Source of the DNA: Eledone cirrhosa
Lineage: Eukaryota
DNA length: 64,000 nt
Assembly: GCA_964016885.1 (NCBI GenBank)
Contig: CAXHJY010000304.1
Coordinates: 62,001-126,000, forward strand
Direction of reading: 5' to 3'
Positions 22,621 to 48,328 of the stretch are shown here, piece after piece; within the stretch, counting starts at the first letter, position 1, and each line of letters opens with the position of its first letter. Position numbers and translations under genes: made by a program. A model generated the notes under the pieces. The model was not told where the DNA came from. It was given only the letters and a program-made list of their open reading frames with translations, and searched no databases.

Positions 22621-22780
22621 AAAAAAAAAAAATCACTTATTCACACTTATACGTACGACATACACACACGCGCATACATATGCGCGCACACAAACGCATA
22701 CATACGATCCGCTTCAACTATACAAACTCTTGAAAGTCAACAGTTGACATAATCTTGTAATCTTGTATCAGTAATGACGG

Positions 22781-22863
<83 letters not shown>

Positions 22864-23888: not shown

Positions 23889-23936
<48 letters not shown>

Positions 23937-24586
23937 CATCCGCTTTTACCTGCTTGCATCGTGACCACAGTCAAACATTTTGAGAATTGATCAACGAAGT
24001 TTCAATTAGGTCTTGCACTACTGCATCTACTGTGAGTTGGTTCCCACAATAATATCTTGTGTATAACTTCCTGCTTACTCTTCCAGCAATGCCCTGCAAA
24101 TCATAACTGTCTTTGAGCAATTGTAGTTGTTATCTTGGGCAAGTTTCCATATATGTATTACATTTGTAATACATTGATGCCAGTTTATGTTTTGTGCAAC
24201 ATTTAGTGTATGTACCATCTAGTTTCATTTCAAGTTCTTGTGTCAGGGTCCATGTACCTGATCTACATTGATTTATCATTGTGCTGGCATGGGTTGGATA
24301 GAACTTTTTGAGGCAATGTTTTACAGCCAGATTTTTACAGCTATTACTCACTTCTTACAACACACAGGGATATGGTTGATCTATTCTAAACTGGATACAT
24401 ATACATAAATAAGATATAGTCCCAACAGAGTACCTTCATCATTTCAGCTTGTTATCATGCCATTCAGTGAGGTGGCATTAGCATCGCATAATCTTGGGAC
24501 ATGTAAAGAAGTCCATGTAAAAATAATATGATTTAAAATAAAATAAAAATCATGAACACTTCATATATATGTATATGTATATATAT

Positions 24587-24862
24587 CATCATCATCATCA
24601 TCATCACGGTTTTACGTCCGTCCTGCCACGTTAGCATGGGTTAGATGAGTTGTCTTGTTGTAGGCAGTGTCCAACAGCTGACCTTGTCTTGCTCATACGG
24701 GAACTGATTCTGGCTTGATTTCTACAGCTGGATGCCCTTCCTAACACCAACCTCATTTACAGTGAGTGCTGGGTGCTTTTTTTTGTGGCACCTCCACGTC
24801 CACTTTACAGTGTTGGCTGGGTGCTTTTTTGCCATGGCACCTCCACAACCACTTTGCAGTGT
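24587..24862 (-). mobile_element. Family-2 SINE / RTE-A 3' tail fragment
   Basis: Reverse complement of the 8080-8295 sequence with (CAT)n. Confidence 0.75.
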
Positions 24863-26168
24863 GTAGGTTTGTACCTGGAAAAGTCACTCTCAATGGCACA
24901 AGTCAGGGCAAGGTGTTTTGTGGAAGAGCAGCAGTCATCCACATAGGCAAGTCTTTTCTCTCCATGCCACTGATGTTGTCCAAAGGAAAAGCAAAGGTTG
25001 ATATAACTTGGAATCAGTGTTGTCACAGGTTATCATCATCATTACCATTTAATGTCCATGTTGTTGTGTCATGAGATGATTGAGATCAGAAGACCATGCC
25101 ATACTCATAAAGATCTGTATTTTAACTTGATTTCTACTGCTGGATGCCCTTCCTAACACCAACCACATTACATTATATATATATACACTATGTATGCACT
25201 ATATATATATACTATAACGCTATGCATGGTTTTACCCAAAGGAAAGGCAAAGGTCAATACAGCTTGACAATCTTAATACATGTATACATTATATATATAT
25301 ATACGTACTATATATACACTATATATACACTATGTATAATGTTGCCCAGGGAAAGGTAAAAGTCAATACAGCTTGACACCAGTGTCATCACAACTAATAT
25401 TTTCCAGCTGAATAAACTGCAGCGCTGTGAAACAGAGTGTCTTGCTCAATGACACAACGCACCATCAAGTCTGAGAATAAAACTCACAACTACACAATTA
25501 TAATCTCAATACCCTAACCACTAAGCCATGCACTTTCAGGTGCCTAGTTATCCAATTATTGACTACCTATAGGACTGATCAACAGCAACAACAACAACAA
25601 CATCAATCAAAGCCACAACCAATAGCTTCTATGTATCAACCCCACAACTACACCTCCACCAATATTACAACTGTTACATAACAAAGCACCAAATCACCAA
25701 CAATAGCAACAGCAATATCAGCAGCAGTAGCAGCAGCAGCAATAAACAGTCAACAACGGAAACAACAATAACAACAACCACAACAACAATTATCATGATA
25801 TACTAGTTACTACCACCACCACCACCACCACCACTACTCGCCAACACCCACACCAACCCAAACACCCACACCAACCCAAACACCCACACCAACCCAAACA
25901 TCCTCCACCACCATCTCCACGTATAACTATCACAACCACCACCACCACCACCACCGCCACCACCACACACCACCACCGCCACCACCACCGTCACCACCAC
26001 ATACCACCACTGCCACCACCACACACCACCACCGCCACCACCACCACCGCCACCACCACCGCCACTACCGCCATTACCAACGTTAAACTAAATATAGCTA
26101 GTGTGAGAGTTATCAATTAAAATAATATATATAGCAACAGTATCTACACCCCTCTGCCCCCACCATAA

Positions 26169-26212
<44 letters not shown>

Positions 26213-26384
26213 ACCATCACCACCAGCTGGTGATGATGGTGATGATATGGGGATGTGGTTGTGATGATGGTGTTGTGGGTGTGATGATGATATGGTAGTG
26301 ATTGTGATCATTGTTGTGATGGTGTGGTGGTAGTTGTGATGCTGATGTGGGGATTGTGATGGTGTAATGGTTGTGATGATGTGG

Positions 26385-29027: not shown

Positions 29028-29540
29028 AGTGGTGATGAGGGTGGTTGTGATATGGTGATGGTAGTAATGATGATGTTGTGGTTGTGATGATGGTGTGGTG
29101 GTTGTGAAGATGGTGTGATGATTGTGATAGAGGAGTAGTTGTGATGGTATGATTGTAGTTATGGTGGTAGTGTGGTTGTGTTGGTGGTATGATAGTGGTG
29201 GTGGTGCTGGAGATGTCATCTGTTTCTTTTTGTTGGCTCCTTTGTGAAGTTCAACATCCTGGGATTTCCTTTCAGTAACATTTTTCTCAGTATATCTCTA
29301 CCATATCTTCCTTCCACTACAAACTCTTGGCACATTTTCTCCCCCCACAACTATTATCCATATACACTACAAGTCCATACCAGGCACAATTTTCTCTCCT
29401 GCTCACTATATTTGATTGCTCTTACACCTAGTTTTTCTCTCAAATCATCTGTTCTCCATCATTCATGCATAATAAAATTACAAATTCAGTGGAGTATGCT
29501 CACTTTATTTATTTCTAGCCTTCACATATCTTTCAAATAT

Positions 29541-29729
29541 AATTGTTTCTACTTTTGGCAAAAGGCCAGCAATTATCCCAGTGCATTACTGGTACTTTAT
29601 TTTATCGACCCCATAAGAATGAAAAGCAAAGTTAACCTCAGCGGGATTTGAACTCAGAATGGAAAGGGCCGTAACTCCATGCATCAAAGCATGGCGTCCG
29701 ACCCTCTACCGATACTGCCAATCCACCAC
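29541..29729 (-). mobile_element. Family-1 tRNA SINE
   Basis: Reverse complement of 915-1101; TTCAAATAT on both flanks (likely TSD). Confidence 0.85.
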
Positions 29730-31412
29730 CCTTCAAATATCTTTCAATGCCCATGTTTATATTGCACATTGCACAACATACACAAGATAATGCCCATGCA
29801 CTATATTGCACATTGCACAACATACACAAACATCATGCTAACTTCCCTTCACTAAGAGAGAAACTCTTTGTTGCCAGCAGACATATTAAATAGCCCTGTG
29901 AACATTTTGTACCTTGTTCTTACTCTGTCCACGATGCTTTTGGAGCACTCTCCTCTACTGCTAATTAGGTCACTTAGGTAAATGAAGCTGTCATTTATTT
30001 CTAGGGAACATGGGTGCCCTCATTGCTATTCCTATACACATGCTAAATTACGAAGTTATCTTGCCTGTAATTCCACAGTTTATATTGGTTACACCATATG
30101 AAATTCCTACCTTCTTTTTTTTTTACATAATTAGCATGGCAATTTCTCAGGTGAGAGTAGAGTCATGTCTTCTATCTGCCTAACTAAAACTTTTGTCTTC
30201 AGGCCTCACAATTTTAGGTTTAGGCCTCTATGTTTGGAATTTATTCTCTAACTCTTTGATAGACTCACCTATCAGAACTTGGTCATTAACTTACAAGAAT
30301 TCATTCTCTCGTGGTAACAATTATGACCACTACCAGAATATATGTGGTTGCCTGAGACCTACGAAATCTAGCAGCCAAATCTTGCTAAATTCTTTTGCTA
30401 CCATATTTCTAATTCAAAGGCACTGCCTAAGATTTTCAAATAATTTGGAAAATAATTAAGAATTCAGAAGGATTTAGTAATATAACCAACTTTATCATTA
30501 TTAAGCTCATGCTAGAAACATAGCTTGTAACTAATATGATTTTCAGTTAATTTCAATGATGACTAAAGTTTTTGGAAGGGTTTAGGGATATAAATGACTT
30601 TCTCCTAAGGTGGGGTTTGGAACATAACTTAACAAAGGTTTATCATCATCATTACCCTTTTTACATCTGCTTTTCTTGTTGCCATGAGTTGTCATGTTAA
30701 AGGTAGACCAATCAGATGACCACATCTTGCTCATGCATTCCATATTTGGCATGGTTTCTATAGCTGGATGCTCTACCTAATACCAAACACTTTACAGGGT
30801 GTACTGGGTGTGTTTTATCATAGCATCAGCACTAGAAAGGTTTTGAGATGATTATCCTCACAGAATTATGATAGAAAGTTTTTAGATAAATATACAATAC
30901 AACAGTTTTGTATGGTAAAACCCAGGACAGTTTCAGGCAGTCTATTATCAAACAGATTAATTTACATATATTGGATATATTAGATAAAGTTACCCTAAAT
31001 ATAAACTGCTTAAGAAAAGTATATGGTGGTCAAGGCTGTGAGGAAGACCTCTGTGTGCTAGAAATAACAGTCAAATCTCCCTAATATATTTACGAAAACA
31101 CACTCTGGATAGAAAAGTCTGTGATACACTATGTCTGAATTACAAAATGGAATGGGTTTGTTTACTCAGGGTTGACTTAGGGCTAAACAACAACAACAAC
31201 AACAACAACAACAGCAACAGCAGCAGCAGCAGCAATAACAACAGACATAAAGAAACAGAATGGACAGTGAGGAGTGTACAGCATGGCCTAAATGCAACAG
31301 TGTATCAGACACATTTAACTGAATGTTGAACGTTCATACTAGTTTTAAATGTTTTCATACTAAACTGCCTTAAATAACCTCTAGTTTTATGATACTAATC
31401 TGTTTATTCTAA

Positions 31413-31627
31413 CCCTTTAGCATTACACTATATTTACTATCGCATGTTAGTGGTAAAGGCTTTATCTCACATAATTACCTCATATAATATCGACTCTATG
31501 AGATTTTGTTAATATTCATTTTGAGAATAATACTTAAACATCAGTCTGAATGGCCAGTTACGGCCAGTTTGAACAGAAAGAGGTGAGAGAATTCTGGCCA
31601 GATACAGCCGGTTTAAATGCTAAAGGG
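31413..31627 (+). mobile_element. piggyBac-type TTAA MITE, copy 1
   Basis: TIR CCCTTTAGCATT...AATGCTAAAGGG, flanks CTAA / TTAA. Confidence 0.8.
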
Positions 31628-31910
31628 TTAAAGTGTTTATATATGTATCTGAAAGTGAATGCACATGATGAAGGTGTTCAGCTCATGACCATAATAGTCA
31701 TGAATTTGATGCCCAGTAGCACACTGTGTCTTTGAACAAGACAGTTTATTTCACAATTGCTCCAATCTATTCAGCTAGTACCAAGCCTATGCAACAAGTG
31801 TTTTAAGGCCATTTTCCCTGCTAAAGCAAGGGGCATGACAAGTAGTTACTTTAGTTGCCCCTTATGACACACATGGATACAGTGTAACCCCCCCCCCCCC
31901 CCCATTTTAA

Positions 31911-32131
31911 CCCTTTAGCATTTAAACTGGACATATCTGGCCAGAATTCTCTCACCTTTTTCTGGTCAAACTGGCTTTAACTGGTCGCTCATACTGATGT
32001 TAAAGTACTGTTCTCAAAATAAATAATATTAAAATCTTATAGATTCGATATTATGTGAGATAATTATGAAAGATAAAGCCTTTACCACTAAAATACAATA
32101 GTATATATAGAGTAATGTAAATGCTAAAGGG
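31911..32131 (-). mobile_element. piggyBac-type TTAA MITE, copy 2 (inverted relative to copy 1)
   Basis: TTAA-CCCTTTAGCATTT...AAATGCTAAAGGG-TTAA; internal sequence is a diverged reverse complement of copy 1. Confidence 0.82.
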
Positions 32132-32577
32132 TTAAACCAGATACACACTCAAGTTTGTAATATCTTTAATAACACAAATAGCAATTACCTTGAATTAATC
32201 ATTGATACATACACAACAGTACCTACCTATACATGGCCTTCACAAATACTTTCAGTGACATAGCAAAAAAAAAAGAAATGTTGCTTTGAACAGCTATAAA
32301 AGGTATTTAACAAAGGCAGACATTCATAAGGATAAACATCATACATTTTGTTATTGACTCTATTTTCGCTATTGTTGTTGCTGTGAATATCGTTGTTGCT
32401 GAGAATATTGTTGTTGTAGTTAATGCTGCTGCTGTTGCTCTAGACATTGTGGTTGTTGTTGTTGTTACTCTTATTGTTGTTGTTTCTGAGAATTAGTATG
32501 GTATTAGTATTAAATCATAAACGAACAACCAAACAAAATGATTCTGAGTATATTCTCTCCCCACTTCTCTCTCTCTT

Positions 32578-32646
<69 letters not shown>

Positions 32647-32874
32647 TCATCATCATCATCAACGTTTAACGTCCGTGTTCCATGCTTGCATGGGTTTGGA
32701 CGGGGGTAGTCCCACTTGAGGCAAGAGTGATTTTCTTGCTCGCATAGGACTGTCTGGCAGGTTTTCTACAGTTGGATGCCCTTCCTAACACCAACCACAT
32801 TTACAGTATATATATATATACTCTTTTACCTGTTTCAGCCATCCGGCTGAGGCCATGCTGGGGCACCGCCCTTG

Positions 32875-32907
<33 letters not shown>

Positions 32908-32908
<1 letters not shown>

Positions 32909-33234
32909 ATCATTTCATTTTACGTCCACTTTTTCCCTGCTTGCAAGGGTGGGACGGGAACTGATTCTGGCTTGATTTCTACAGCTGGATGCCCTTCCTA
33001 ACACCAACCTCATTTACAGTGAGTGCTGGGTGCTTTTTTGCCGTGGCACCTCCACGACCACTTTGCAGTGGAATGATAGGGACCTAAGTCCCTATCATCT
33101 CATTTCTACAGCTGAGTAAACTGGAGCAATGTGAAATAAAGTGTCTTGCTCAAAGAAACAACACATCACCCGGTCTGAGAATTGAACTCACAACCTTTCA
33201 ATTGCAAGGCCAATGCTCTAACCACTAAGCCATG
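32908..33234 (-). mobile_element. Composite family-2 SINE with RTE subfamily-B terminus
   Basis: Same head as 7914; tail switches at CCCGT to CCCACCCTTGCAAGCAGGG. Confidence 0.8.
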
Positions 33235-33884
33235 TAATATATATATATATATATCATCATCATCATCATCATTGCTTAATGCCATGGGTGTGGTTCCCTG
33301 CTACAAAAGACAAACCTATGAGTATTCAAGTGAAATGTCTTTCAGACGCTTTGTTTGACAGGTTTTTAACAGCTGGGGTGTTCTTTCTATCACCAACTAT
33401 TTCACAGTATCTGGGTGATCTTTTGTATAGATTACCAACTCTAGGAAGATTGTCAAGTCTGTGACACAAATGAAAAGATCTGAATCTTTCTTTGGCAAGT
33501 TTTCTAAAGCTAGATGCCCTTCCTATCACCAATATATATTATCATCACTATATTATGTCCACTTTTCCATGCTTGCATGGGTAGGATGGGTCTTTTCGGG
33601 ACAGCATCCCTCCACTCATCATATTCCTTCATCATCTCCTCTATGAGCTTCAGCAATTTGTGATCAGCTGTAACCACCTCCACGCAGGCCTTCCTTGGTC
33701 TTCCTCGACTGCAGCTTTCTTCCACAGGGAATTTTAGGCACTGCTAATTAGATCACCTAGGTAGCAGAAGCTATCAACCATTTCTATGGGTCCTTCCTAA
33801 GATTGGAAAAGGTTTATTTCACTGATGCTCTTACTACTAACTATCTCTATACATCTACTACATACAAAGTTTACTTTTCCTGTT

Positions 33885-34250
33885 AGTCTGTCTGGTGTCC
33901 CACCACTTTCTGCAGCCGCAACCTGGTGCAGTCTGTGACTGACCCAGGTTCTGCTGCACGTCGGGCTGAGGGGGCCAAACTCCTCAAATACCGGTTGCTC
34001 TCTGACAGGTTTGTGGTCGTTCCCCTGGCAGTGTAAACTTCTGGTGTCCTTGGCCCCAGGGCTACCTCCTTACTCACCACTATAGGCGATGAGCTGGCCA
34101 GCTGTAGGTGTGAGCCCCGCGAGTTGGAGTGGCTTTTCCAGCGCGTCTCCCTTGCCGTACTCCGGGGAAACGCCTTCTCCATTCTGTCCGCCGGGGCTGT
34201 GGGTGGGCTCCATCACGTACCAATACATTAGTTAAATACCATTCTTTCAT
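33885..34250 (+). mobile_element. CRE-like non-LTR element 3' fragment (restriction-like endonuclease end)
   Basis: AARRAEGAKLLKY...FVVVPLAV*TSGVLGP...FQRVSLAVLRGNA. Confidence 0.7.
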
Positions 34251-34611
34251 CACAAAGAAATTATATTGCTCAACACCTCTTGTGTACTCAAGATTTACAT
34301 TGTGTACATCATAAAGAGTTTCTGCCTACTCCTTTTTCTACATATCGAGCATTGCCACTTCAATGATGGGATCAGGGCATTATCTTCTTTCCTACTTATT
34401 AATACTTATCCCACTTGAAGCAAGATTGGTCGTCTCGCTCGTATAGGACTGTCTATATATAAATATGAGCTCTTCATGCACAAGCAGTGTATATACAGGC
34501 ATCCACAATCAGGTGTTGCCAGACAAAAAAAATATTAAAAACTTTCCAGTCCTCACACACCCATACGCCCCCCCCCCCCACACACACACACAGACATATA
34601 TATATATACAC

Positions 34612-36176
34612 TTGTACCTAGCTAAAAGTAAGCCACTCTACCTGGCATTTGTCGACCTTGAGAAAGCATTTGACAGAGTTCCACGTGCTGTAATCTGGTG
34701 GGCTCTTAGAAAACTAGGAGTAGATGAATGGCTTGTGAAAGCGGTACAAGCCATGTATAGGGGAGCAGTCAGCAAAGTTAGGATTAGCAATGAGTATAGC
34801 GAGGAATTTAGCGTACAGGTTGGGGTCCACCAGGGCTCTGTTCTTAGCCCCCTCCTGTTCATCATAGTCCTGCAGGCAATAACGGAGGAATTTAAGACCG
34901 GATGCTCATGGGAACTCCTGTATGCTGATGACCTCGCACTTATAGCTGAATCTATGGTAGAACTAGAGAAGAAATTCCAAACTTGGAAGCAGGGACTGGA
35001 AAGAAAGGGTCTCAAAGTCAACATGACAAAGACTAAGGTCCTTGTAAGTAGACGAGAAAACAGAACCCAGATCCCCTCAGGGAAATGGCCTTGCTCAGTA
35101 TGTAGGAAAGGTGTAGGTAGGAACTCCATTCTCTGCCCCAAATGCAAACAATGGGTACACAAGAGATGTAGCGGAATCTCAGGAAGCTTAATTAAGAATG
35201 TAGGATTCACATGCAGCAGCTGTGCTGGGACAGCAAGCAGCAAACAGCCACAGGAAACAAGTACCACCAATCTCTGGGAGGGCTCTGTAGAAACAGTAGA
35301 CAGCTTCTGCTACCTAGGTGACCGAATTAGCAGCGGAGGTGGGTGTTCAGAAAGTACAATAACTAGGGTAAGAATGGGATGGAAGAAGTTTAGGGAACTA
35401 CTACCACTGCTAGCTGCAAAAGGCTTCTCCCTCAGAATGAAAGGCAGACTGTATGATGCGTGTATCTGAACAGCGATGTTGCATGGTAGTGAGACCTGGG
35501 CGCTGAAGGTGGAAGACTTACGTAGATTAGAGAGAAACGAAGCCTGCATGCTCCGATGGATGTGTAACAGTAATATACGTGAACGACAAAGCATAAATGA
35601 ATTGAGAGAGAGACTGAGCATAAGAGGAATCAAATGCTGTGTGCAGGAGAGGCGGTTGCGCTGGTATGGACATGTGATGCGTATGAAGGATGACAGCTGC
35701 ATAAAAAGATGCAGAGCACTAGAAGTTGATGGAAACCGCGGAGTGGGGAGACCCAAGATGACTTGGGATGAGGTGCTAAAAGCCGACCTTACCCAACTAC
35801 ACCTCTCAAAGACAATGACACACGACCGTGACTTCTGGCGTCACGCAGTAATACAGAGTACCCAACCTCCCATGGGTACAAGCTGAAGCATATAGACAAT
35901 ATGCCCCACACCCCCCACCGCAAGGTGGTCGTGGAGGTGCCACGGCAAAAAAGCACCCAGCCCACACTGTAAAGTGGACGTGTAGGCGCCACGAAAAAGC
36001 ACCCAGCACTCACTGTAAATAAGGTTGGTGTTAGGAAGGGCATCCAGCTGTAGAAATCAAGCCAAATCAGTTCCTGTATGAGCAAGGCATGGTCAGCCGA
36101 CCAGACACTGCCCACAACAGGACAACCCGTCTAACCCATGCTAGCGTGGAAGAACGGACGTAAAACGGTGATGATG
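34612..36176 (+). mobile_element. 5'-truncated RTE subfamily A copy with a nonsense codon at 35467-35469
   Basis: Very similar to 12418-13975; CGA>TGA relative to the intact copy. Confidence 0.92.
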
Positions 36177-37087
36177 ACACTTGCAATTGAATACACAGGC
36201 TAAAACACACACATACACATATACACAAATATATATACACACACAAGTAGGCATGCCTATGTACGCAAACACTTACGTATGCACACATGCAAAAAAATAG
36301 GCCCAATTTCTATATAATTCATATGTATATATGATATTACACATACATATATTATATATAAATATATATAGTGTGCAAGAGAGAAGACTACATTGGTATA
36401 GCACACTATGCAGTGTTGGGAGAAGACTCTTACCCTTCCACTAACACTCCCTAACACATAACAGTTATTCTCAACTTCACTACTTCACCCCCACCCGCAT
36501 TATTGGCACCCCACCTCCATTATTGGCACCCCACTCCCACCAATGAAGTGGTCAGTGATAGGAAGGGCTTCCGGCCATCGAGAGCTTGCCAAGCAAACAA
36601 ACAAAAAGTCGGGAGGACCCTTCGGTCATTTCATGGACATACTTCCTAGTGTTGGTGATCTACATGATAAACACACCCAGTACAGTGGTTGGTGATAGGA
36701 AGGGCATCCAGATATAGAAATCTTGCCAAACAAAGGGTTGGGAGGGCCGTGGGAGAGCCCTCAGTTATGACAAAGGCAGGACAACCTCTCCTGAACACTT
36801 AATGGAATGTGAGACCGTACATAAGCGCACATCCCTGGCCTGCCTGGGAAATCAGTGGCTCCATGTCAGTACCGACTTGGTCTATATAGACCCGTCCAAA
36901 CCTTGCAAGCAGGGAAAGTGGACATTAAAATGACAACGATGATGATGATGATATATATATACATATATATTATATATATATACATATGATATATATATAT
37001 GATATATATATATGATATATATACATATGATATATATATACATATATATTGTATATATATACATATGATATATATATACATATATAT

Positions 37088-37570
37088 TGCAGAGCACTAG
37101 AAGTTGATGGAAACCGCGGAGTGGGGAGACCCAAGATGACCTGGGATGAGGTGATAAAAGCCGACCTTACCCAACTACACCTCTCAAAGTCAATGACACA
37201 CGACCGTGACTTCTGGCGTCACGCAGTAATACAGGGTACCCGACCTCCCATGGGTACAAGCTGAAGCATATAAACAATATGCCCCCCCCCCCCCTCCACC
37301 GCAAGGTGGTCGTGGAGGTGCCACGGCAAAAAGGCACCCAGCCCACACTGTAAAGTGGACGTGTAGGCGCCACGAAAAAGCACCCAGCACTCACTGTAAA
37401 TGAGGTTGGTGTTAGGAAGGGCATCCAGCTGTAGAAATCAAGCCAAATCAGTTCCTGTATGAGCAAGGCATGGTCAGCCGACCAGACACTGCCCACAACA
37501 GGACAACCCGTCTAACCCATGCTAGCGTGGAAGAACGGACGTAAAACGGTGATGATGATGATGATGATGA
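37088..37570 (+). mobile_element. RTE subfamily A 3' fragment
   Basis: Near-identical to 13511-13990. Confidence 0.9.
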
Positions 37571-37625
37571 TATATTATATATATATAATATGCATATATA
37601 TTATATATATATGTATATATATATA

Positions 37626-37661
<36 letters not shown>

Positions 37662-37666
<5 letters not shown>

Positions 37667-37872
37667 CCGTGTAGGCAACACGGTAAAAACCTCCCAGCCC
37701 CACACTGTAAATGTGGTTGGTGTTAGGAAGGGCATCCAACTGTAGAAAACCCGCCAGACAGTCCTATGCGAGCAAGACAACCACTCTTGCCTCAAGTGGG
37801 AAAACCCCCGTCCAAACCCATGCAAGCGTGGAACACGGACGCTAAACCTGATGATGATGATGATGATGATGA
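37662..37872 (+). mobile_element. RTE subfamily C 3' UTR fragment
   Basis: Reverse complement of 49966-50175; a further copy lies at 32645-32806 (-). Confidence 0.8.
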
Positions 37873-38499
37873 TATATATATATATATATGAGTTTCTGTA
37901 TGGCTTTGCCATTTCAAAGATGGTTATCCACTCACCCTGGAAATGGCAAGATCCCAACCATTGGAAACCAACTCATTATAATACCTACACTCTAACTTCC
38001 TAAGTATCATGTACTCACCTGAACAATGGTCCTACTAGTCTATACTGGTAAAACCCATATATATATGTTAATAGTTTTCTCTCGTGGTATTGGTGGACAT
38101 GTCTTGTCAATACTTCCTTCATTGTCACAAAGTGACTGTCATATGAACATATCTTTTATTATAATATGTGTGTCGACAACAGATAAGGCAAATATACCTG
38201 AAAGGAGTGTTCTGCATAATGTGTAAATATATAAATAGAGCCTTGCTGTCTGAATATGATGAGTGTACAAACACTCTAATCAACTGAGACTATCCTCGTA
38301 ATTTCAAAACCAAACCTTCCATTAAAGGTGTTCAGATGATAGAAAGCAAGCAAAGGAGATAAGACCAATAGACTATAAAATGGTCCACTCCCACTGCATT
38401 TACTTACATTGTTCTGAAAGAGTTGGATCTGCCAATACTATAATATTTCTATTCCTTCTTTATCCAAAATGATAACATTGCTGACACTCAAAAGAAAGA

Positions 38500-39240
38500 G
38501 ACATGGAAATGCCAATATGGGAGGTTGTTGAATGTGGAGAATAAGCGGGAGGAAGAGAAAGTACCCCAGCTGACATAAGAGACAGCTATCAAAATTGACA
38601 GTTACAGAAGCAATCAAAAATATGAAAAATGGTAAAGCTACTGAACTGAGATGCTGAAAATGTCTTGAGACATAGCCAAACTAGTCACCTGCATAGTCGA
38701 TCATGTAATACAGGACGGGATGATACCCAGTGATTGGCGCAGCAGCATACTCATTAACATTTACAAAGGAGAAAAGGTGATGCACTAGAAAGGAACAACT
38801 ACAGGGGCATAAAACTGATGGACCAAGTTATAAAGGTGACAGAAAGAGTTTTAGCACTGCTAATTAGGGTAAGAGTCAAATTAGGTGAGTTGCAGTTTGG
38901 TTTTATATCAGAGAGGAGCACTACAGATGTCCTCTTCTTAGTGACACAACCACAAGAGAGGTTCCTAGCTAAAACTACACCACTGTATCTAGTTTTCATT
39001 GATCTAAAGAAGTCTTTTCACAGAGTACCACAATCTGTCATCTGGTGGTCTCTAAGGAAACTAAACATAGAAGATTAGGTTGTGAGAGCAGTGCAAACCA
39101 TGTACAGAGAACTTGTCAGTAAAATGAGGATAGGTTATGAGTTTAATGAGTAATTCATTGTGTAGGTAGATATTCATCAAGACTCAGTCCTCAGCTTTAT
39201 CCTGTTTATTATAGTTCTCCACTCAATAACAGAGGAGTTC
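38500..39240 (+). pseudogene. Old degraded RTE RT fragment
   Basis: NYRGIKLMDQVIKVTERV...QFGF...FIDLKKSFHRVP with stops. Confidence 0.8.
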
Positions 39241-39380
39241 AATGGTGATGATGATGTGTGTGTGAGTGCATGTGCGTGTATATATATATATATAGCTGTT
39301 GTATGGTTGCAATAAATACGTCCGTAGGCAGTATGCCGTTTGAGCACTCGATGCTCGTGCAGAGCAGAATATATATATAT

Positions 39381-39412
<32 letters not shown>

Positions 39413-39416
<4 letters not shown>

Positions 39417-39642
39417 ATGAGAATGGAGGGTGACCGCTGGGTAAAGAAGTGCCAAGAAACGCCAGTAGAAGGAAGACACAGTCGAGGAAAACCACGAAAA
39501 ACAGGTGGTGAGAGCAGACCTCAGATCGCTTAAACTCATGGAGGAGATGACGAAGGACCGTGACAAATGGAGGGATGCTGCGCTGAATAGGACCCATCCC
39601 ACCCTTGCAAGAAGGTAAAAGCGGACGTAAAATGATGATGAT
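39413..39642 (+). mobile_element. RTE subfamily B 3' fragment
   Basis: Similar to 9262-9500. Confidence 0.8.
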
Positions 39643-39679
<37 letters not shown>

Positions 39680-39690
39680 GTATAATCAGT

Positions 39691-39743
39691 GAGTGTCACT
39701 GATGAAAGATTAATGAATCTTGAAAGAACGTTGTCTGATACTC
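39691..39743 (+). ncRNA. Minimal type I hammerhead ribozyme motif (one helix III mismatch)
   Basis: GAGUGUCA-CUGAUGA-AAGAUU(AAUG)AAUCUU-GAAA-GAACGUUG-UC-UGAUACUC. Confidence 0.7.
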
Positions 39744-40744
39744 TCAGAATATTCTGGCAACTCTATAATATATTCATAGAGGAAAATAGAAAAAAAATAT
39801 CATTTTTTACGTTTCATTTTCGTTTCATTACAAAAAAATTTTTCTTCACCAGTGATGTTAACCATATTTTCATTGTATATAAATGTATTATCTATGTTTA
39901 TATATGTCTTCATATACACCTCTATTAGTGCTGCTAACATAAATATATATATATATCATATATATATATACACATATGAAATTAATATTAAGACAGATGT
40001 TATATAATCGTATTAATCAGATAATATGTATTCAGAGACACCAGTGTGGAGTTGTAATGTGATCATTACAACAACGACTAGATGTTAAGACAGTTATATG
40101 AAGGAGTTGTCACATTCATGTTTGTTGCTGTTGTAATCATTGCATTGTCACTGAAATATGTATTATCCAATAAATACAATTATGTAACATCCGTCTTAAC
40201 TTTAATTTCATACATAGAAATTCTAGAGCATTTGATCACCATCGTTATGCTGGATAGATATGACTGATATGAAATACTCTTACCTGCTTACACCTGCTAA
40301 TCAACAAGATGTCACAACACAACTCTTATGGATAAGCAACACAGTAATTAACAACTATATATATACATATATATGTGTGTGATTGTGTGTTTGTGTGTGC
40401 ATGTGTGTGTGTGTGTGTGTGAGTGTATGTGTAGAGACAAGTGCTTAGTGGTTTGAAAGTTGTATTCATAATCATGAGATTGTGAGTTTGGTTCCTTGAC
40501 AGGTAATGTGTTGTGTCCTTGAGCAATACATTTTATTTCACATTGCTCCAGTTCACTCAGCTGTAGAAATAAGTTGTAATGTCGCTGATGCAAAGCTGTA
40601 TCAGCCTTTGCCTTTCTATTGGACAACATAGGTGATGTAGAGAGAGACTGGTATGCATGAGCGATTGCTTGTTTTCCACAAAAACATTTTGCTGGGCTTG
40701 AACTTCAGAGGGAAACTTTCTTTATTAGTGTCATCTTTATTATT

Positions 40745-41735
40745 TGTACTTGGGGTTCTTGGTCTTCATAAGTGTTCGTCCCTTTCTCTTCCCTGCTTCC
40801 TTTCCTCCACCCATGCTTGCTCCACCCTGGTGAGCAGCATCCTCTCCTCTCCGACATGGACTAGTTCCAACAGGGTGTTGGGTGAAGCTCTCCAGCAATG
40901 GAGTGAGTTGGGCTTGTCTCTTCCTGAGAAGGTGGAGAACTGTCGAAGTCAGAGAACTTAGGACAGCATAAGTTCTAAAGCCACCTTCGACTCCCTCTTC
41001 ATCCAGTCGGATCAGTTTGCAAGGTGCCGCTTACTATCTGCCAGCGTCAAATACTCAGGCGACTGGGTTGATGCCCTGCCTGTGGTCAACATTGGTGGCC
41101 TACTCAGCCTGGACGAACTTCATGTCTCCGTCGCCCTCAGAGTGGGAGCTGACGTCTGCATGGGTTTGAGGTGCCGATGCGGCAAACTCCTCGACTCTAC
41201 AGGTCTCCCCGGTATTTCTTGCCGCCTGAATGCCGGCCGCTTCGTGTGTCACACAGAGCTAAACCTCATTCTCAAGAGAGCTTTGGCCCGGGCTAACATC
41301 CCCTCAGTCTTGGAACCATCTGGGTTGTCCAGAAGTGACAGCAAAAGACCTGACAGCCTTACCCTGTGCCTCTGGTCGAGAGGCAGGTGCCTTGTCTGAG
41401 ACGTCACTGTTAGTGACTCTTTTGCTTCTTCTCACATCCTGGATGCTGCGGTTAAGACGAGAGCCACAGCTTCTGCAACCGACCGGGGGTAAGACCCTCA
41501 AATACTGTGATCTGTCGGCCAGCTACATTTTTCAGCCTGTGGCTTTCAAGACGTTTGGGGAAGTTGGGCCGCTGACTGTGAGGTTCCTCTCTTCACTGGC
41601 GGCTCGCCTAATAGAGGTGACTGGCGAATCATTAGAGAGGTTGCCCGGTACTCCTTGCGACGCTGCTGTCTTTTGCTCTGGTGTTTGCTCGGTTGTTCAC
41701 CACTTCATTTTCTTTAGTATTGCAACATTAAAAGA
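40745..41735 (+). mobile_element. CRE-like non-LTR element 3' part (zinc knuckle and PD..D endonuclease), degenerate
   Basis: SGDWVDALP...VALRVG...CRCG...SC...HTELN..LKRAL...LEPSGLSRSDSKRPD...W.RGRCLV*DVTV...KY...FQPVAFKTFG. Confidence 0.78.
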
Positions 41736-41902
41736 ATATATCCTTCTGAAATAATTGCAAGCAATTTATAATTGTTTCTACTTTAGGCATAAGGCCAGCA
41801 ATTACCCAGTGCATTACTGGTACTTTATTTTATCGACCCCGAAAAGATGAAAGGCAAAGTCAATTTATAATGTTATCTAAGCATTTGTAATGTTATTTAT
41901 GT

Positions 41903-42440
41903 CATCATCATCATCACTGTTTTATGTCCGTTCTTCCACGCTAGCATGGGTTAGACAGGTTGTCCTGTTGTGTCCAGTCGGCTGACCTTGTCTTGCTCAT
42001 ACTGGAACTGATTCTGGCTTGATTACTACAGCTGGATGCCTTTCCTAACACCAACCACATTTACAGTGAGTGCTGGGAGCTTTTTTTCCGTGGCGCCTAC
42101 ACATCCACTTTACAGTGTGGTCTGGGTGCTTTTTTGCAATGGCACCTCCACGACCACTTCGCAGTGGGAGGGGGTGGGGCATATAGTCTATATGCTTCAA
42201 CTTCGGCTTGTACCTGTGGAAAGTCGTGTCTTCTGTATTACTGCGTGACGCCAGAGGTCACAGTCGTGTGTCATCGCCCTTGAGAGATGCAATAGGGTAA
42301 GGTCGGCTTTTATCACCTCATCCCAGGTCTTCTTGAGTCTCCCCACTCCGCGACTTCCATCGACTTCTAGTGCTCTGCACCTTTTTATGCAGCTGTCATC
42401 CTTCATACGCATCACATGTCCATACGCATCACATGTCCAT
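41903..42440 (-). mobile_element. RTE subfamily A 3' fragment, antisense to the host gene
   Basis: MRMKDDSCIKRCRALEVDG..., 3' UTR and (CAT)n. Confidence 0.85.
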
Positions 42441-42545
42441 ATATGTATAAATTTAAAACATATTTGTTATATTATTCTACTGTAAATTTATTCATATGCT
42501 TTGTATAATAAATTTCCCACCAGCTTCTATATATATATATATATA

Positions 42546-42941
42546 TAGGGTGCGGCAAAATGATCTGACACATTTGTACATTTAATAAAAGCGAAATAGA
42601 ATAAAAAATGAACAAAGTATTTTTATTTTCTAAATATACATATATATGTTTCTACTTTTGGCACAAGGCCAGCAATTTTCCCAGTTTATTACTGGTACTT
42701 TATTTTATTGACCCCCATAAGGATGAAAGGCAAAGTTAACCTCGGCAGGATTTGAACTCTGACAATAAAGGGCCGTAACTCTTTGCTGCAAAGCATGACG
42801 TCAAACCCTCTACCGATACTGCCAATCCACCGCCATTTTGTTTTATTTTGTTTTAAATATTACATCAACCAAATTGCCGCTGTTGTTGTCCACACACTGT
42901 CGAAGGCATTCGCAGAAGTCAGATCATTTTGCTGCACCCTG
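42546..42941. mobile_element. Tc1/mariner-type MITE with a family-1 SINE inserted (about 42647-42835)
   Basis: TIRs (C/T)AGGGTGCGGCAAAATGATCTGAC / GTCAGATCATTTTGCTGCACCCTG, TA flanks; minus-strand remnant CLRQCVDNNSGNLVDVIF resembles a transposase C-terminus. Confidence 0.75.
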
Positions 42942-43477
42942 TATATATATATATAAAAACAAATAGTAGAAAGGAAAAAATATTTTCAGTAGAAAATGTT
43001 GAAGAGATTCTTTCAGTGAAATATCAAAACATTAATTTATTTACAATACCGGTTTCAGCATTATATGCATTGTCAATTGCGGATATGCAGAATATTGATA
43101 ATAATAATAGCTGACCCTTGTGGAATTCCATGGCTTAATTAGAAATAATCACCCATGAAGCCACATGATCAAGATTTTCTAGACTACATCACATGAAAAA
43201 TTAAAGTCTTTACTTTACTGCAAATTTTCATAATGATCTGTCTGCTAGTAAAAATATAAACATTTGAATTAAGAAATTTATTTTTGGATCTTTTTGGCGA
43301 AATTGTTACAGGATGTTAAGTGTTAAAGATCAATTAATATATAGATATTTTAATTATAAGTTGAGACAACTTATGCAGCTTCATATGCAAATGAGATTAA
43401 TCACCTCATTTACACAGAGGAGAAAACTATATATTCTTGACTGTTTTCAAGTCCAGCAGTAGCAAGCAGTGGGAGGG

Positions 43478-43521
43478 ACCGTCCTGACGAAGGCTAAACA
43501 AGCCTGAAATGCATAGACGGT
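43478..43521 (+). ncRNA. Minimal type I hammerhead ribozyme motif with extended helix I (43451-43544)
   Basis: ACCGUC-CUGACGA-AGGCU(AAACA)AGCCU-GAAA-UGCA-UA-GACGGU; outer GUCCAGCAG..AGCAAG / CUUGCU.CUGCUGGAC. Confidence 0.85.
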
Positions 43522-43589
43522 TGTCCCCCTTGCTTCTGCTGGACACCACGAAATATAAGTCAATTGCATGAACTCATAATCCTTTATTT

Positions 43590-43645
43590 ACTGCTATATA
43601 TATTTCGATGATAGCCATTGAATGGCTATGACCTCATCAGGCAGT
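43590..43645 (-). ncRNA. Minimal type I hammerhead ribozyme motif
   Basis: ACUGC-CUGAUGA-GGUCAUAGCCAU(UCA)AUGGCUAUCAUC-GAAA-UAUAUA-UA-GCAGU. Confidence 0.8.
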
Positions 43646-44219
43646 TAGTCAGTTCTTAGATATGCCAGCTCTGTGTTTTTGGTGTTGATGGTTTCAGAGC
43701 CTTGAGACATATGAGCTTGTTAGGGATAATTCAATGTAGTCAGCAGGAATAATCTTAATTCTCATTGGTCAGTTTTTAGATGCTAGTAGGGTTGGTATTT
43801 GACCTCAAAGAGGCAGGTGGTGTTGTAAAGTTCAGACAAGATGACAATAGTTCCATATGACTGATTTTCACAAAAAGCATTCCTGGTCAGATATATATTC
43901 AATTGAGGTTTATAGTATGAAATTCGATACTACAGGTCATTCTTAAATTGAGGAATTTATGTGGGGTGGTAATACTGAAAATTATGGTTAGAGTCAAATA
44001 CTTAGAAGTTTACAAATAAAAAGACTTATGTTGGTTGACTTGTACATACACTCACACCTACCCCCACAGACACACACATCTACACACACAAATCCATACA
44101 GGTGTGTATATATATGTATGTACGCACAAGTGCATATATATATACAACAGAGGCCCCCAAATCCAAGTATATGGCAGACAAAAAACGAGGTGGGTGTTAT
44201 TTTTAAAGGAAAGTAAAAT

Positions 44220-44312
44220 GTTTGACCCCGACGGCAGAGCTCAAGCCGTTTCGCCAGCTATTTCGGGAAAATAGCCGTCGAAACGGCTTGAGTTCTGTCG
44301 TCGGGGTCAAAC
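44220..44312. repeat. 93-bp near-perfect GC-rich palindrome
   Basis: GTTTGACCCCGACGGCAGAGCTCAAGCCGTTTCG ... CGAAACGGCTTGAGTTCTGTCGTCGGGGTCAAAC. Confidence 0.9.
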
Positions 44313-44399
44313 TTTTTCCTATTACCCACTCTACTACCCTAAGTATTGAGTACTCTAGTGCATTATGGTCCATCTGGTTCCTTACCAGACCTCCTTCGT

Positions 44400-45603
44400 T
44401 ATATATGTATAACTGAGGATGTCTGTCTGTGTAAATCCCTAAAACTCGAGAATTACCTAACCGATTTTTTTCAAACTTTACACATGCGTTACTTATATTG
44501 CTTGACGTGCAATGGGCTAAAAAATTTAATTTTCTGCGCAAGGTCCCACATTTGTCGAAAAACCACATTTTTAAGGCATTTTTAGGCTTTTTTGAGGCGT
44601 AACTTAAAGATAATCCAGCTGATTTCCTTGAAATTTGCAGCACACATTAGTTAGTCCTCTTACATTTCTGTGGACAAAAAAAAATTTCCGATTACATTAA
44701 TAGTTTCTAGGAAATTTATGAATTAGCATTGGGCATTACATGCCATTTTCATTTTCAATATAAATGCTACTTAAACATCGTAAGTAACATATAATATTTC
44801 GTTAAAAATTTGGTTTATTTAACAAAGGACACAACACTTACTTACTTTTAAGCAGGACGATTTTTGGGGGATTGAAGAAATGAGGAGGACCTTAAAATGT
44901 TTGTCGACGCCCTGTTGACGCTTCATGCTTTCATCACTCACAAATCCGGGCCCTGTGTACGTTGCCGTGTTATTGACACCGTAAAACTCACGTCTGTGCT
45001 ACTTCTACTAAGACCTCTTTTGTTGCACCTACACCGCAGTATCAACGCCCTGCGCAAGTACGCCGAAGAGCGGTTGTGCTAATTCCACGGTGACCCCTTT
45101 TGTCGCACCTTTCTTGCGGTGTAAATGCAGTAGCAACCAGTGCCACCCAGCATTTGTGCTAATTGCACTATGACACCCTTCTGCTGAAGCTGCATTTCCA
45201 CACTGATTTTGTCATCTCAGTATCCCTACTTAAACGTACATCCCTACTTTGTTTTCATACAATTGAGTACGTTGCTCCTTCAGATGATGTCTGTCCGGAT
45301 GACTGGGTGCAAATCAATAAAACTCAAAAAGTACCTAACCGATTTTCTCCAATGGAAGAAAAAATCATACTCTAAGATTTAGTACGCTTAAAGAGTATCC
45401 AGGTGATTTTCTTCAGATTTTGCACATGCATGCAGATGTTTCACGATTCGGGCCTGCTGGTGTTCTACGTTTCCAGTAGATGAACAATCATTCCCTGAGA
45501 ATAAGAGAATTCAAAACGTACACAGCTACATTCCTCAATCTTTGCATATGCGTGTTGCTATTTCATGTTTCCTACCCCGTGCAACGCCGGGTCCTGCTGC
45601 TAG
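44400..45603 (+). mobile_element. Non-autonomous Helitron-like element
   Basis: 5' TATATATGTATAA...GTCTGTCTGTG...CCGATTTT..AAACTT; 3' hairpin CCCGTGCAACGCCGGG, 8 nt, then CTAG|T. Confidence 0.72.
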
Positions 45604-46138
45604 TATATATATAAACTTAAGAAAATTAACAAAGAAAAGACAAAATAACAAACGAAAACAAAACAAATTTATAGCCGTTCAGCTACAAAACATACAATTT
45701 TGTCTGACGTTAGGGAAAATGTCTGGTGCCTGATAGAGCATGTGATACATGAGGGAAACAAAGAAAAAAACGGAAAAAAAGAAAGAAAAAAGCAAGAAAA
45801 AGAAAGTAAGATATCGTGTTAAAAAATGTAAGCTATTACAATAAATGGGGGAGAAGGGATAAACACGTATGCCACGTTAGTAAATAAACTTAAGAAAAAA
45901 AGGACAAGTCAACAAATGCAAACAAAACAAAACAAACAAGGGGAAACCTTAAAAAAATTTTTTTTTAATATACAAACGAAATCATTATCATCATCATTTC
46001 ATGTCTGTTTCTATGCTGGCATGGGTTGGATTGGTTGTCAGGTACTGAGATTAGACATGTCAGTTATCCTCATCTTGTTCATACATTCCATTTTGTCATG
46101 GTTTCTACTGCTAGATGCTCTTCTTAATACCAATTATT

Positions 46139-47211
46139 TTACAGTGTACTGGGTGCATTATATTGTGGTACCAGCACTACCATTTTACAGAGTGAACTGG
46201 GTGCATTATATTGTGGTACCAGCACTACCATTTTACAGAGTGAACTGGGTGCATTATATTGTGGTTCCAGCACTACCATTTTACAGAGTGGGCTGGGTGC
46301 ATTATATTGTGATTCCAGCACTACCATTTTACAGAGTGGGCTGGGTGCATTATATTGTGGTACCAGCACTACCATTTTACAGAGTGGGCTGGGTGCATTA
46401 TATTGTGGTTCCAGCACTACCATTTTACAGAGTGGGCTGGGTGCATTATATTGTGGTACCAGCACTACCATTTTACAGAGTGGGCTGGGTGCATTATATT
46501 GTGGTACCAGCACTACCATTTTACAGAGTGGGCTGGGTGCATTATATTGTGGTACCAGCACTACCACTTTACAGAGTGGGCTGGGTGCATTATATTGTGG
46601 TTCCAGCACTACCACTTTACAGAGTGGGCTGGGTGCATTATATTGTGGTACCAGCACTACCATTTTACAGAGTGGGCTGGGTGCATTATATTGTGGTACC
46701 AGCACTACCATTTTACAGAGTGGGCTGGGTGTATTATATTGTGGTACCAGCACTACCATTTTACAGAGTGGGCTGGGTGCATTATATTGTGGTACCAGCA
46801 CTACCATTTTACAGAGTGGGCTGGGTGCATTATATTGTGGTACCAGCACTACCACTTTACAGAGTGGGCTGGGTGCATTATATTGTGGTACCAGCACTAC
46901 CATTTTACAGAGTGGGCTGGGTGCATTATATTGTGGTACCAGCACTACCATTTTACAGAGTGGGCTGGGTGCATTATATTGTGGTACCAGCACTACCATT
47001 TTACAGAGTGGGCTGGGTGCATTATATTGTGGTACCAGCACTACCATTTTACAGAGTGGGCTGGGTGCATTATATTGTGGTACCAGCACTACCACTTTAC
47101 AGAGTGGGCTGGGTGCATTATATTGTGGTACCAGCACTACCACTTTACAGAGTGGGCTGGGTGCATTATATTGTGGTACCAGCACTACCACTTTACAGAG
47201 TGGGCTGGGTG
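46139..47211. repeat. 48-bp minisatellite, about 22 copies
   Basis: Unit TTACAGAGTGGGCTGGGTGCATTATATTGTGGTACCAGCACTACCA(T/C)T; 16-aa periodic ORFs. Confidence 0.95.
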
Positions 47212-48328
47212 TGTATATATGTATATATATATATGTTGATTAAGTGTATGCGGTTAATAACAACTACCATTGGCACCACAACCATTACAACCATCACCAC
47301 CACTAGTAACACCATTAGAAGCATCACCACCACTACTACCAACATCAGAACCACCACAACCACCACTATTAAAACCACTACCACCATCACCACCACCACC
47401 ACCACCACCACCAACACCACCACCAACACCACAACAACAATAACAACAACAATAATAACAACAATAACAACAACTGCCCCAACACCACCATCACCACCAC
47501 AACAACCGCCACAATTACAATCATCAATACCAACACCATTCCAACCATCAACAGCACCAGCACTACCAACACCTCCACCACCACATGCCAGTATCACAGA
47601 CAAAGCCAGGTTTGTGGAACTATCAGTAGTGGGTTCAATTCTAACACTCTTTCCCCATTCTCTCCAAACAACAACAGCAAGAAAAACCATTCTATCAGAG
47701 TGTAACTATGGCAACAGAGAATCCTATTTTTAACTTTGTTAGTATAATGGTTTTATTGAGTGATTATATGCATGTATGTATATGTATGTACGTATATAGT
47801 AGTAATCAAAGCAGCAAAGTGGAGTATATATATAAAGGAAGACATGAGAATGTGTAAGCGTGGGTATGCATACAGTCAATAAAGCATATATATATATATA
47901 TATACTTAATTAAACATGCATGTATACACACATATATAGGAATTGATAAACTTACATACCCACATACATATTCCAATTTTATATATTTGTATAGATGCCT
48001 ATACTTACATTAATACACACTATCTTGAATTAACTAAGAGTACGCCTATACCCAGTTAAGTATAGTTCTCTGTCCGTTATTGTTGTTGTTGTTTAACCCC
48101 ATGTCAACCATGACTGACCAGAGCTCTGTTTTTGTCTGTTATTTTCCACTATAATTATGTTACAGATGTGTCAAATACATCATCATCATCATTATAACCA
48201 TTTTATATCCCTTTTCTTGATTATTTTCAAAGTAATGTACGGGTTAAAAGTATTATTTCAAAAATAGCGGGAAATTATTATATCAAATTTATTCCAAATG
48301 ATAAACATTCTTTTTATTGTTGTTTCAG

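What the first reader, a model, noticed from the sequence alone, without database searches (positions are those of the whole stretch)
43451..43647. Two convergent minimal hammerhead ribozymes 70 bp apart inside the host intron
Seen: a plus-strand type I hammerhead (ACCGUC-CUGACGA-helix II-GAAA-UGCA-UA-GACGGU) inside a roughly 90-nt extended hairpin, and a minus-strand one of unrelated sequence (ACUGC-CUGAUGA-long helix II-GAAA-UAUAUA-UA-GCAGU). Known: minimal type I hammerheads with a palindrome in place of helix III occur in Penelope-like element termini and non-LTR retrozymes and are thought to cleave as dimers. Inference: two different PLE or retrozyme ends meet tail-to-tail. Sequence 5' of the minus motif translates to KLICLKALKPSTPK, resembling a decayed PLE endonuclease end. 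The plus motif has no recognisable ORF beside it.
Basis: partly seen in the sequence, partly recalled or inferred. Interest (0 to 1): 0.75.

Follow-up and report, generated by a model that had tools for sequence, protein, structure and literature searches.

The report
Two transposon hammerheads joined by accident
Both self-cutting-RNA motifs are really in the DNA, but they are ordinary leftovers of two abundant jumping repeats, a Penelope-like retrotransposon and a small non-coding repeat that likely rides on such elements, and they face each other at a junction found only once in this genome, likely an accident without function.

Summary
Both type I hammerhead motifs and both predicted cut sites are as described, and helices I and II covary across related families. 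The plus motif belongs to family A, a 323-nt ORF-less, retrozyme-like repeat (829 exact core matches). The minus motif sits in the 3' UTR/pseudo-LTR of family B, a Hydra-clade Penelope-like element (6,377 core matches with its sister families), 1.2-1.3 kb downstream of the real stop codon. The 'KLICLK...' peptide is therefore not an endonuclease remnant. Both families end in (TA)n, and convergent hammerhead pairs are common here (13 others under 1.5 kb in fetched loci). This pair is unusually close because the A copy lacks about 122 nt and B lacks 3 nt plus its TA tail, joined at a 2-nt microhomology found once in the genome. The A copy and 257 nt of flank were copied from one locus on contig C3. 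The motifs lie on opposite strands with incompatible palindromes, so they are not predicted to act together. Cleavage and expression were not tested. The scan noted this class before, on other pieces of this genome. Verdict: new members of known kinds, low interest.

The parts
43478..43521 (+). Type I hammerhead of family A: helix I 6-7 bp, helix II 4 bp in the family (5 bp here), palindromic helix III AUGCAU, predicted cut after 43515. Loop 2 differs from the family majority at three positions (43495, 43497, 43498).
43451..43544 (+). Extended hairpin prolonging helix I of the family A hammerhead; predicted in 5 of 5 copies folded
43353..43549 (+). Family A copy: 197 nt of a 323-nt retrozyme-like monomer, 3'-truncated by about 122 nt relative to its C3 counterpart
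43096..43549 (+). 454-nt segment (257 nt flank plus the A copy with the same 5' junction) matching over its whole length one other locus, G000:C3:37362460-37362913, with 11 differences and 2 shared derived bases; C3 is the inferred donor
43548..43549 (.). A|B junction: 2-nt microhomology, no TA run; one match in the genome
43590..43646 (-). Type I hammerhead of family B: helix I 5 bp, long helix II with a C-C mismatch, palindromic helix III AUAUAUAU, predicted cut 3' of 43595
43548..44220 (-). Last 673 nt of the 3' UTR/pseudo-LTR of family B, a Hydra-clade Penelope-like element; non-coding; lacks the terminal 3 nt and the (TA)n tail
42956..43101 (-). End of a third repeat family (E) abutting the left (TA)n run 42942-42955; joined to the C3-derived segment through a shared stretch of about 14 nt after a 27-nt deletion. 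Strand inferred from the TA-side end.
44212..44411 (+). Fourth repeat family (C): inverted arms 44212-44263 / 44269-44320 and a long arm ending at a TA run; its left TA run is replaced by the 5' end of the B piece through about 6 nt of imperfect microhomology
17632..48328 (+). Host intron (inferred, 30.7 kb) between two exons of a CABIT-domain gene

Best explanation
The two motifs are hammerhead folds of two unrelated, abundant repeat families, a non-coding retrozyme-like repeat and the tail of a Hydra-clade Penelope-like retrotransposon, brought face to face by a one-off rearranged insertion that is likely without function. SHOWN: family B carries RT plus C-terminal GIY-YIG with Hydra motifs, its hammerhead lies near the 3' end, and copies end at (TA)n; family A is a 323-nt permuted unit without ORF, with two preferred 3' ends about 45 nt apart, followed by TA-like sequence, and frequent inverted 5' arms; helices covary; the junction is unique. 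INFERRED: a Hydra-type RT-endonuclease nicks (TA)n DNA and starts reverse transcription at internal sites of its own RNA, and of family A RNA in trans. In the parent families the hammerhead would cut when two copies of the same family pair their palindromic helix III (tandem transcript), probably weakly or with protein help. Integrated copies derive from uncut or re-ligated RNA, not from the cut linear monomer. At this locus only the A motif is in the sense of the host pre-mRNA; it is a lone monomer with an altered loop 2 and is predicted to cut poorly; the B motif would need antisense transcription. How the junction arose is open: a single template-switching insertion (about 50%) or nested insertions into a TA run followed by deletions (about 45%).
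For: Exact-pattern counts 829 (A core), 1,124 (relaxed A core), 6,377 (B plus sister families), each with 0 in the reversed-pattern control. Sharp family boundaries meeting at 43548/43549. 29 of 29 other A loci continue past 43549 and 29 of 29 other B loci end in a TA run there. B ORF in L225: DKT, YRDD, CNCRDPSLC, VVY..YIG, CNLC, CRH, and RWR upstream of a frameshift; stop 1,293 nt before the hammerhead core; partial upstream copy of the 3' end in direct orientation. These match the Hydra traits in PMC8557442 section 11. A: monomer 323 nt in two loci, GC 43%, longest open frame 73-77 aa; of 60 distinct pieces 50 cross the cut site, 18 exceed one monomer, 0 start within 5 nt of the cut, 56 end in two clusters, 39 have A sequence again at the 5' side. 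Covariation: 5 of 11 pairs (A group) and 8 of 13 pairs (B group) change on both sides; covariation score above 500 of 500 shuffles and above all slid controls. Helix III is a perfect palindrome in 10 of 19 motif families. Predicted helix III duplex -4.7 (A:A), -3.2 (B:B), +1.7 (A:B) kcal/mol. Junction pattern: 1 match. 13 other convergent pairs under 1.5 kb.
Against: No cleavage or expression data. The covariation rows were picked by hand, one per sequence variant (10 of 26 and 10 of 41 variants listed), are related, and include single decayed copies; the count of pairs with two-sided change was reached by 17 of 500 shuffles in both sets. Hydra placement rests on motifs, no tree was built; Pfam gave only a sub-threshold GIY-YIG hit (E 0.021) and no RT hit; B is about 4 kb, longer than the 'generally <3 kb' of Hydra. 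No long tandem arrays of A were seen (longest piece 569 nt), and no sequence link between A and B beyond short AT-rich words, so the mobiliser of A is inferred from insertion signatures only. The loci sampled were fetched with A and B queries, mostly from contig C1, so pair counts are not genome-wide rates.
Confidence: 0.88

Rival explanations
1. Family A is the pseudo-LTR of an autonomous Penelope-like element not yet seen, rather than a stand-alone retrozyme.
For: A has PLE-type insertion signatures: TA-like 3' flanks (40 of 60), two 3' ends about 45 nt apart, inverted 5' arms. The preprint 10.64898/2026.07.22.740005 reports retrozymes as derivatives of PLE pseudo-LTRs.
Against: The unit runs from its 3' end straight into its own 5' part. 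In 60 loci tblastn with two PLE proteins hit only one place about 1 kb from A; in the first 30 loci one unrelated piece and one weak hit. The 21 non-A 5' flanks share no common upstream sequence except another repeat in 3.
Confidence: 0.07
2. The convergent pair is a functional device, for example cutting sense and antisense transcripts of the host gene at facing sites.
For: Both cores and both helices I are intact, 68 nt apart, in a host intron.
Against: Both copies have diverged from their family majorities about as much as other copies (A 4.1% vs median 4.6%; B 2.5% vs 1.9%), the A loop 2 carries three changes, the palindromes cannot cross-pair, the junction is unique, and convergent neighbours are common. 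PMC4209133 reports no monomer cleavage for a tested minimal PLE motif.
Confidence: 0.02
3. The junction is an assembly artefact of the unplaced 204-kb contig C331.
For: The contig is unplaced and the block is a mosaic of repeats with a piece shared with C3.
Against: The shared piece differs from C3 at 11 of 454 positions, more than a duplicated read would; all three inner junctions show microhomology.
Confidence: 0.03

Closest known systems
Hydra-clade Penelope-like elements (Craig et al. 2021, PMC8557442; passages, section 11 in full, supplement rows)
   Same: RT then C-terminal GIY-YIG; RWK-like, DKT, CxCX5C, CxxC and CxH motifs; hammerhead near the 3' end; (TA)n insertion; pseudo-LTR and inverted copies. 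The supplement lists a cephalopod family, Hydra-1_Obim, with a 3' hammerhead.
   Different: Family B is about 4 kb with a 1.2-1.5 kb 3' UTR and has RWR; its hammerhead sequence differs from that listed for Hydra-1_Obim, so it is another family. No tree built.
Non-LTR retrozymes of animals (Cervera and de la Pena 2020, PMC7229834, passages; Li et al. preprint 10.64898/2026.07.22.740005, part 1 of 5 and passages)
   Same: Family A: 323-nt unit, 43% GC, one type I hammerhead per unit, no ORF, some direct dimers with two hammerheads.
   Different: Sampled copies are dispersed pieces of at most 1.8 units, often head-to-head in (TA)n, not long arrays; circular RNA not shown.
Type I and minimal hammerheads of PLE pseudo-LTRs (Cervera and de la Pena 2014, PMC4209133, passages)
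   Same: Conserved core, unstable palindromic helix III predicted to need a dimer. The B motif has the long helix II and short helix I described for PLE motifs; the A motif fits their 'canonical' metazoan type I (helix I 6 bp, helix II 4 bp).
   Different: Neither lacks helix III altogether, so neither is a strict min-HHR.
Poseidon element PAc of the anole (Frangieh et al. 2024, PMC11167929, passages)
   Same: Two internal reverse-transcription starts producing a short 'tail', AT-rich targets, uncut RNA as the main template, no RNA ends at the cut site: all mirrored by the end and start statistics of family A.
   Different: Different clade; PAc's hammerhead overlaps the start codon and was tested in vitro (protein-assisted); nothing here was tested.

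Membership tests
Type I hammerhead ribozyme (both motifs) | Core CUGANGA...GAAA...UH with open helix I | tested here: met
Type I hammerhead ribozyme (both motifs) | Helices I and II supported by compensatory changes | tested here: met
   hand-picked related rows
Type I hammerhead ribozyme (both motifs) | Match to an Rfam hammerhead model | tested here: not met
   no hammerhead family reported; a library match, not a defining trait of the fold
Type I hammerhead ribozyme (both motifs) | Site-specific self-cleavage | not testable with these tools
   needs in vitro assay
Strict min-HHR (PMC4209133) | No helix III/loop 3 | tested here: not met
   AUGCAU and AUAUAUAU palindromes present
Hydra-clade PLE (family B) | Single ORF, RT followed by C-terminal GIY-YIG | tested here: met
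   L225 847-aa frame, YRDD at 317, VVY 727, YIG 742; Pfam GIY-YIG only E 0.021, below cut-off
Hydra-clade PLE (family B) | CxCX5C linker; CxxC and CxH around the conserved E and N | tested here: met
   CNCRDPSLC, CNLC, CRH
Hydra-clade PLE (family B) | RWK and DKT motifs | tested here: met
   DKT in L225; RWR in L225 and RWK in the sister family L228
Hydra-clade PLE (family B) | Absence of the CCHH motif, CxC domain and IFD | tested here: inconclusive
   none seen by eye; no reference alignment made
Hydra-clade PLE (family B) | 3' hammerhead and (TA)n insertion | tested here: met
   29 of 29 and 12 of 14 copies end at a TA run
Hydra-clade PLE (family B) | Placement in the Hydra clade of an RT tree | not tested
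   no reference proteins were held
Non-LTR retrozyme (family A) | Unit of about 170-400 nt, GC under 50%, one type I hammerhead | tested here: met
   323 nt, 43% GC
Non-LTR retrozyme (family A) | No coding capacity | tested here: met
   longest frame 73-77 aa; no adjoining PLE ORF
Non-LTR retrozyme (family A) | Tandem organisation, dimers to multimers | tested here: inconclusive
   direct two-hammerhead copies in L202 and L203; longest of 60 pieces 569 nt; no long array seen
Non-LTR retrozyme (family A) | Expression as linear and circular monomer RNA | not testable with these tools
   no RNA run available

The most novel reading that the evidence does not exclude
The 1.47-kb block between two TA runs (42956-44411) is one insertion event in which Penelope-type reverse transcriptase passed the growing cDNA across four unrelated templates (family E, an RNA or DNA from the C3 locus, family B, family C), entering B and C only 2-3 nt inside their normal start sites. 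PLE complexes would then accept a stalled cDNA end as primer, which would explain their partial tandems and let them build cross-family chimeras and copy host sequence between chromosomes.
Probability: 0.35. Interest if true: 0.45.

Novelty: new member of a known kind. Interest (0 to 1): 0.2.

Why it matters
As a locus it matters little: it is retroelement debris in a 30-kb intron. The two families are of some use: a Hydra-clade element (with a sister family showing open frames near 890 aa) and a retrozyme-like passenger with the same TA-targeting and two-ended 'tail' offer a testable pair for the open questions of who mobilises animal retrozymes and what PLE hammerheads do. The mosaic junctions, if made in one event, would be a genomic trace of template hand-over by a Penelope-type RT.

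Tried and rejected
Rfam scans found no hammerhead model match. Decayed-endonuclease reading of KLICLK...: rejected; non-coding 3' UTR, and the same stretch reads KLICPKALIQSTPQ upstream of the start codon in L225. Naiad identity for B (my first recall): rejected, since Naiads have an N-terminal endonuclease. A peak of A 5' ends at the cut site as a trace of in vivo cleavage: not found, 0 of 41 and 0 of 60 pieces; one copy (L005) starts near it. B inserted cleanly into A: the missing A part does not follow B in the window. Haplotig explanation for the C3 match: only 454 nt are shared in a 9.9-kb comparison. Shared ancestry of A and B ends: only short AT-rich words. Expression: no RNA holder listed, no evidence either way. 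Independent support for the junction: no listed contig of 4 runs (one study, at most 2 samples) bridges 43548/43549; inconclusive, lists were cut and the source may be another individual. PDB search with the B RT: nothing meaningful. In one search the B motif was sliced one base off; the duplex energy was recomputed. The neighbour tally misses pairs with a mutated helix I (the 323-nt tandems of L202/L203 were not listed). Paper searches: (PLE, template switching, chimeric, retrotransposition) listed 5 papers, none read beyond the listing, so I do not claim that cross-family PLE chimeras are absent from print. Supplements of the bioRxiv preprint were not seen and could list related families.

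Full report
1. Observation. Both motifs are present at the stated places. Plus: helix I 43478-43483/43516-43521, core from 43484, helix III palindrome AUGCAU, predicted cut after 43515, in a hairpin 43451-43544 (z -6.3, 0 of 200 shuffles). Minus: helix I 43646-43642/43594-43590, core from 43640, palindrome AUAUAUAU, predicted cut 3' of 43595 (z -2.1, 5 of 200 for 61 nt; z -1.25, 20 of 200 for 81 nt). They are 68 nt apart. A descriptor scan gave 4 motifs in the window against 0.01 per shuffled window (100 shuffles). Rfam reports no hammerhead here. The locus lies between two plus-strand exons that carry consecutive parts of a CABIT domain, with phase-0 GT at 17632 and AG at 48328.

2. Two repeat families. 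Each motif is a high-copy repeat in the 3.0-Gb genome: 829 exact matches to the A core, 1,124 to a relaxed A core, 6,377 to the core of B and its sister families, 0 in each reversed control. Fetched copies define A as 43353-43549 (+) and B as 43548-44220 (-).

3. Family B is the tail of a Hydra-clade Penelope-like element. [quoted passage not shown] In L225 an 847-aa frame holds DKT, YRDD, CNCRDPSLC, VVY..YIG, CNLC and CRH, with RWR upstream of a frameshift and a partial copy of the 3' end in direct orientation before the start codon. These are the traits given for Hydra in PMC8557442 section 11, whose supplement lists a cephalopod Hydra family with a different 3' hammerhead. The stop codon lies 1,293 nt (L225) or 1,183 nt (L050) upstream of the hammerhead core, so the window's 673 nt are non-coding and the KLICLK peptide is a chance frame of 24 residues. 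29 of 29 best-matching copies and 12 of 14 pattern-selected copies end at the same terminus followed by a TA run; one continues into the 5' UTR and one stops about 10 nt early. No tree was built, and Pfam gave only a sub-threshold GIY-YIG hit.

4. Family A is retrozyme-like. Two loci with two hammerheads in direct repeat give a 323-nt unit, 43% GC, longest frame 73-77 aa. Among 60 distinct pieces from 60 loci on contig C1, 56 end in two clusters about 45 nt apart, 40 are followed by TA-like sequence, 39 have A sequence again at the 5' side, 50 cross the cut site, 18 exceed one unit (maximum 569 nt), and none starts within 5 nt of the cut. No PLE ORF adjoins it. This fits the size and make-up of non-LTR retrozymes (PMC7229834, passages) and the PLE mechanism shown for PAc: two internal RT starts giving a tail, and uncut RNA as main template (PMC11167929, passages). 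Trans-mobilisation by a Hydra-type protein is inferred from these signatures only.

5. Structure support. In 10 hand-picked variants per group (of 26 and 41 listed), 5 of 11 pairs (A group) and 8 of 13 pairs (B group) change on both sides; the covariation score beats 500 of 500 shuffles and all slid controls, while the count of two-sided pairs is reached by 17 of 500 shuffles in each. Rows are related, so these are not probabilities. Over all fetched loci, 153 distinct motifs fall into 19 families, 10 with a perfect helix III palindrome of several different sequences, chosen without regard to palindromy. PMC4209133 (passages) describes this architecture as dimer-dependent, with low in vitro activity and none for a tested monomer. 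Predicted helix III duplexes are -4.7 (A:A), -3.2 (B:B) and +1.7 (A:B) kcal/mol.

6. Why they face each other. Convergent neighbours are common: 14 pairs under 1.5 kb in the fetched loci including this one (11 between different families), beside 21 divergent and 10 tandem pairs (loci were selected with A and B queries). L196, L197 and L198 show tail-to-tail copies with TA between. The window pair is the closest because A stops about 122 nt early and B lacks its last 3 nt and TA run, joined by a 2-nt microhomology; the junction pattern has one match in the genome. The segment 43096-43549, flank included, matches one other locus in full (C3:37362460-37362913) with 11 differences and two shared derived bases; at C3 the A copy is complete and a local duplication spans the left boundary, so C3 is the likely donor. 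Left of it lies the end of a third family (E, 42956-43101) at a TA run, joined by about 14 shared nt; right of B lies a fourth family (C) entered about 2 nt inside its TA-side end. The block thus reads (TA) E(-) | C3 piece | B(-) | C(-)C(+) (TA). One template-switching insertion explains three TA-less junctions in a row and the entries near the termini of B and C; nested insertion with later deletions (the C3 piece then being a 5' transduction by A) uses only known steps. I cannot separate them.

7. Function at the locus. The motifs are on opposite strands and cannot be ribozymes in one RNA. Only A is in the host sense; it is a monomer with three loop-2 changes. Both copies diverge from their family majorities like other copies. 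I predict little or no cleavage and no role. No RNA run was available.

8. Comparison and verdict. Works like, and by motifs is, a Hydra-clade PLE end (B); works like a non-LTR retrozyme (A), with array organisation inconclusive and circular RNA untested. The scan noted the same class on another piece of this genome (e1-8671580) and head-to-head insertions with short and long ends in another genome (e1-8669363); these are unchecked AI notes and I rely on my own calls. That the host looks like an octopus is my recall from a SINE-like stretch near 42620-42840 and was not tested. Novelty: new members of known kinds. Interest 0.2.

Noticed in passing
window 39691-39743 (+) and 60726-60661 (-): Two more type I hammerhead motifs of other families; the first has a one-mismatch palindrome, the second AUAUAUAU.
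   Followed up: partly
window 19810-21672 (-) and 62468-63913 (-): Further Penelope-like ORF pieces with DKT and/or CxCX5C linker and GIY-YIG-like end, i.e. other Hydra-type families; the second is present as two near-identical pieces.
   Followed up: partly
L228:1913-4594 and other places listed: A sister family of B (about 72% identical in RT) has open frames of 850-896 aa, with RWK and DKT and a related hammerhead with compensatory changes; in L228 it has an inverted 5' copy.
   Followed up: partly
L227:362, 838, 1314 (+): Three identical hammerhead-like cores with an ACUAGU palindrome at a 476-nt period: a probable tandem retrozyme trimer; helix I not checked.
   Followed up: no
family A head-to-head insertions, e.g. 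L008, L018, L110, L119, L121, L124: In most inverted pairs one arm ends at the short 3' end and the other at the long one, with exceptions such as L130.
   Followed up: partly
family A, monomer positions 285-323 and 1-14 counted from the cut: No 5' truncation point of 41 pieces selected by a 3' pattern falls in this 53-nt zone around the hammerhead core and cut site (about 7 expected if uniform; length bias not modelled).
   Followed up: no
window 42525-42962: TA-flanked element with 45-nt inverted ends and a very high-copy SINE-like insert at about 42620-42840.
   Followed up: no
window 60158-60222 (+) and 7920-7977 (+): Weak tRNA matches (39 and 29 bits), probably tRNA-derived SINE heads or pseudogenes.
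   Followed up: no
window 26170-29300 and 46130-47240: Long minisatellite arrays with strong GC skew in the first.
   Followed up: no
window 2245-5593, 8344-13687, 34447-35886, 50350-53451, 58845-59753: Several LINE-like endonuclease/RT ORFs (labels by recall, not scanned).
   Followed up: no
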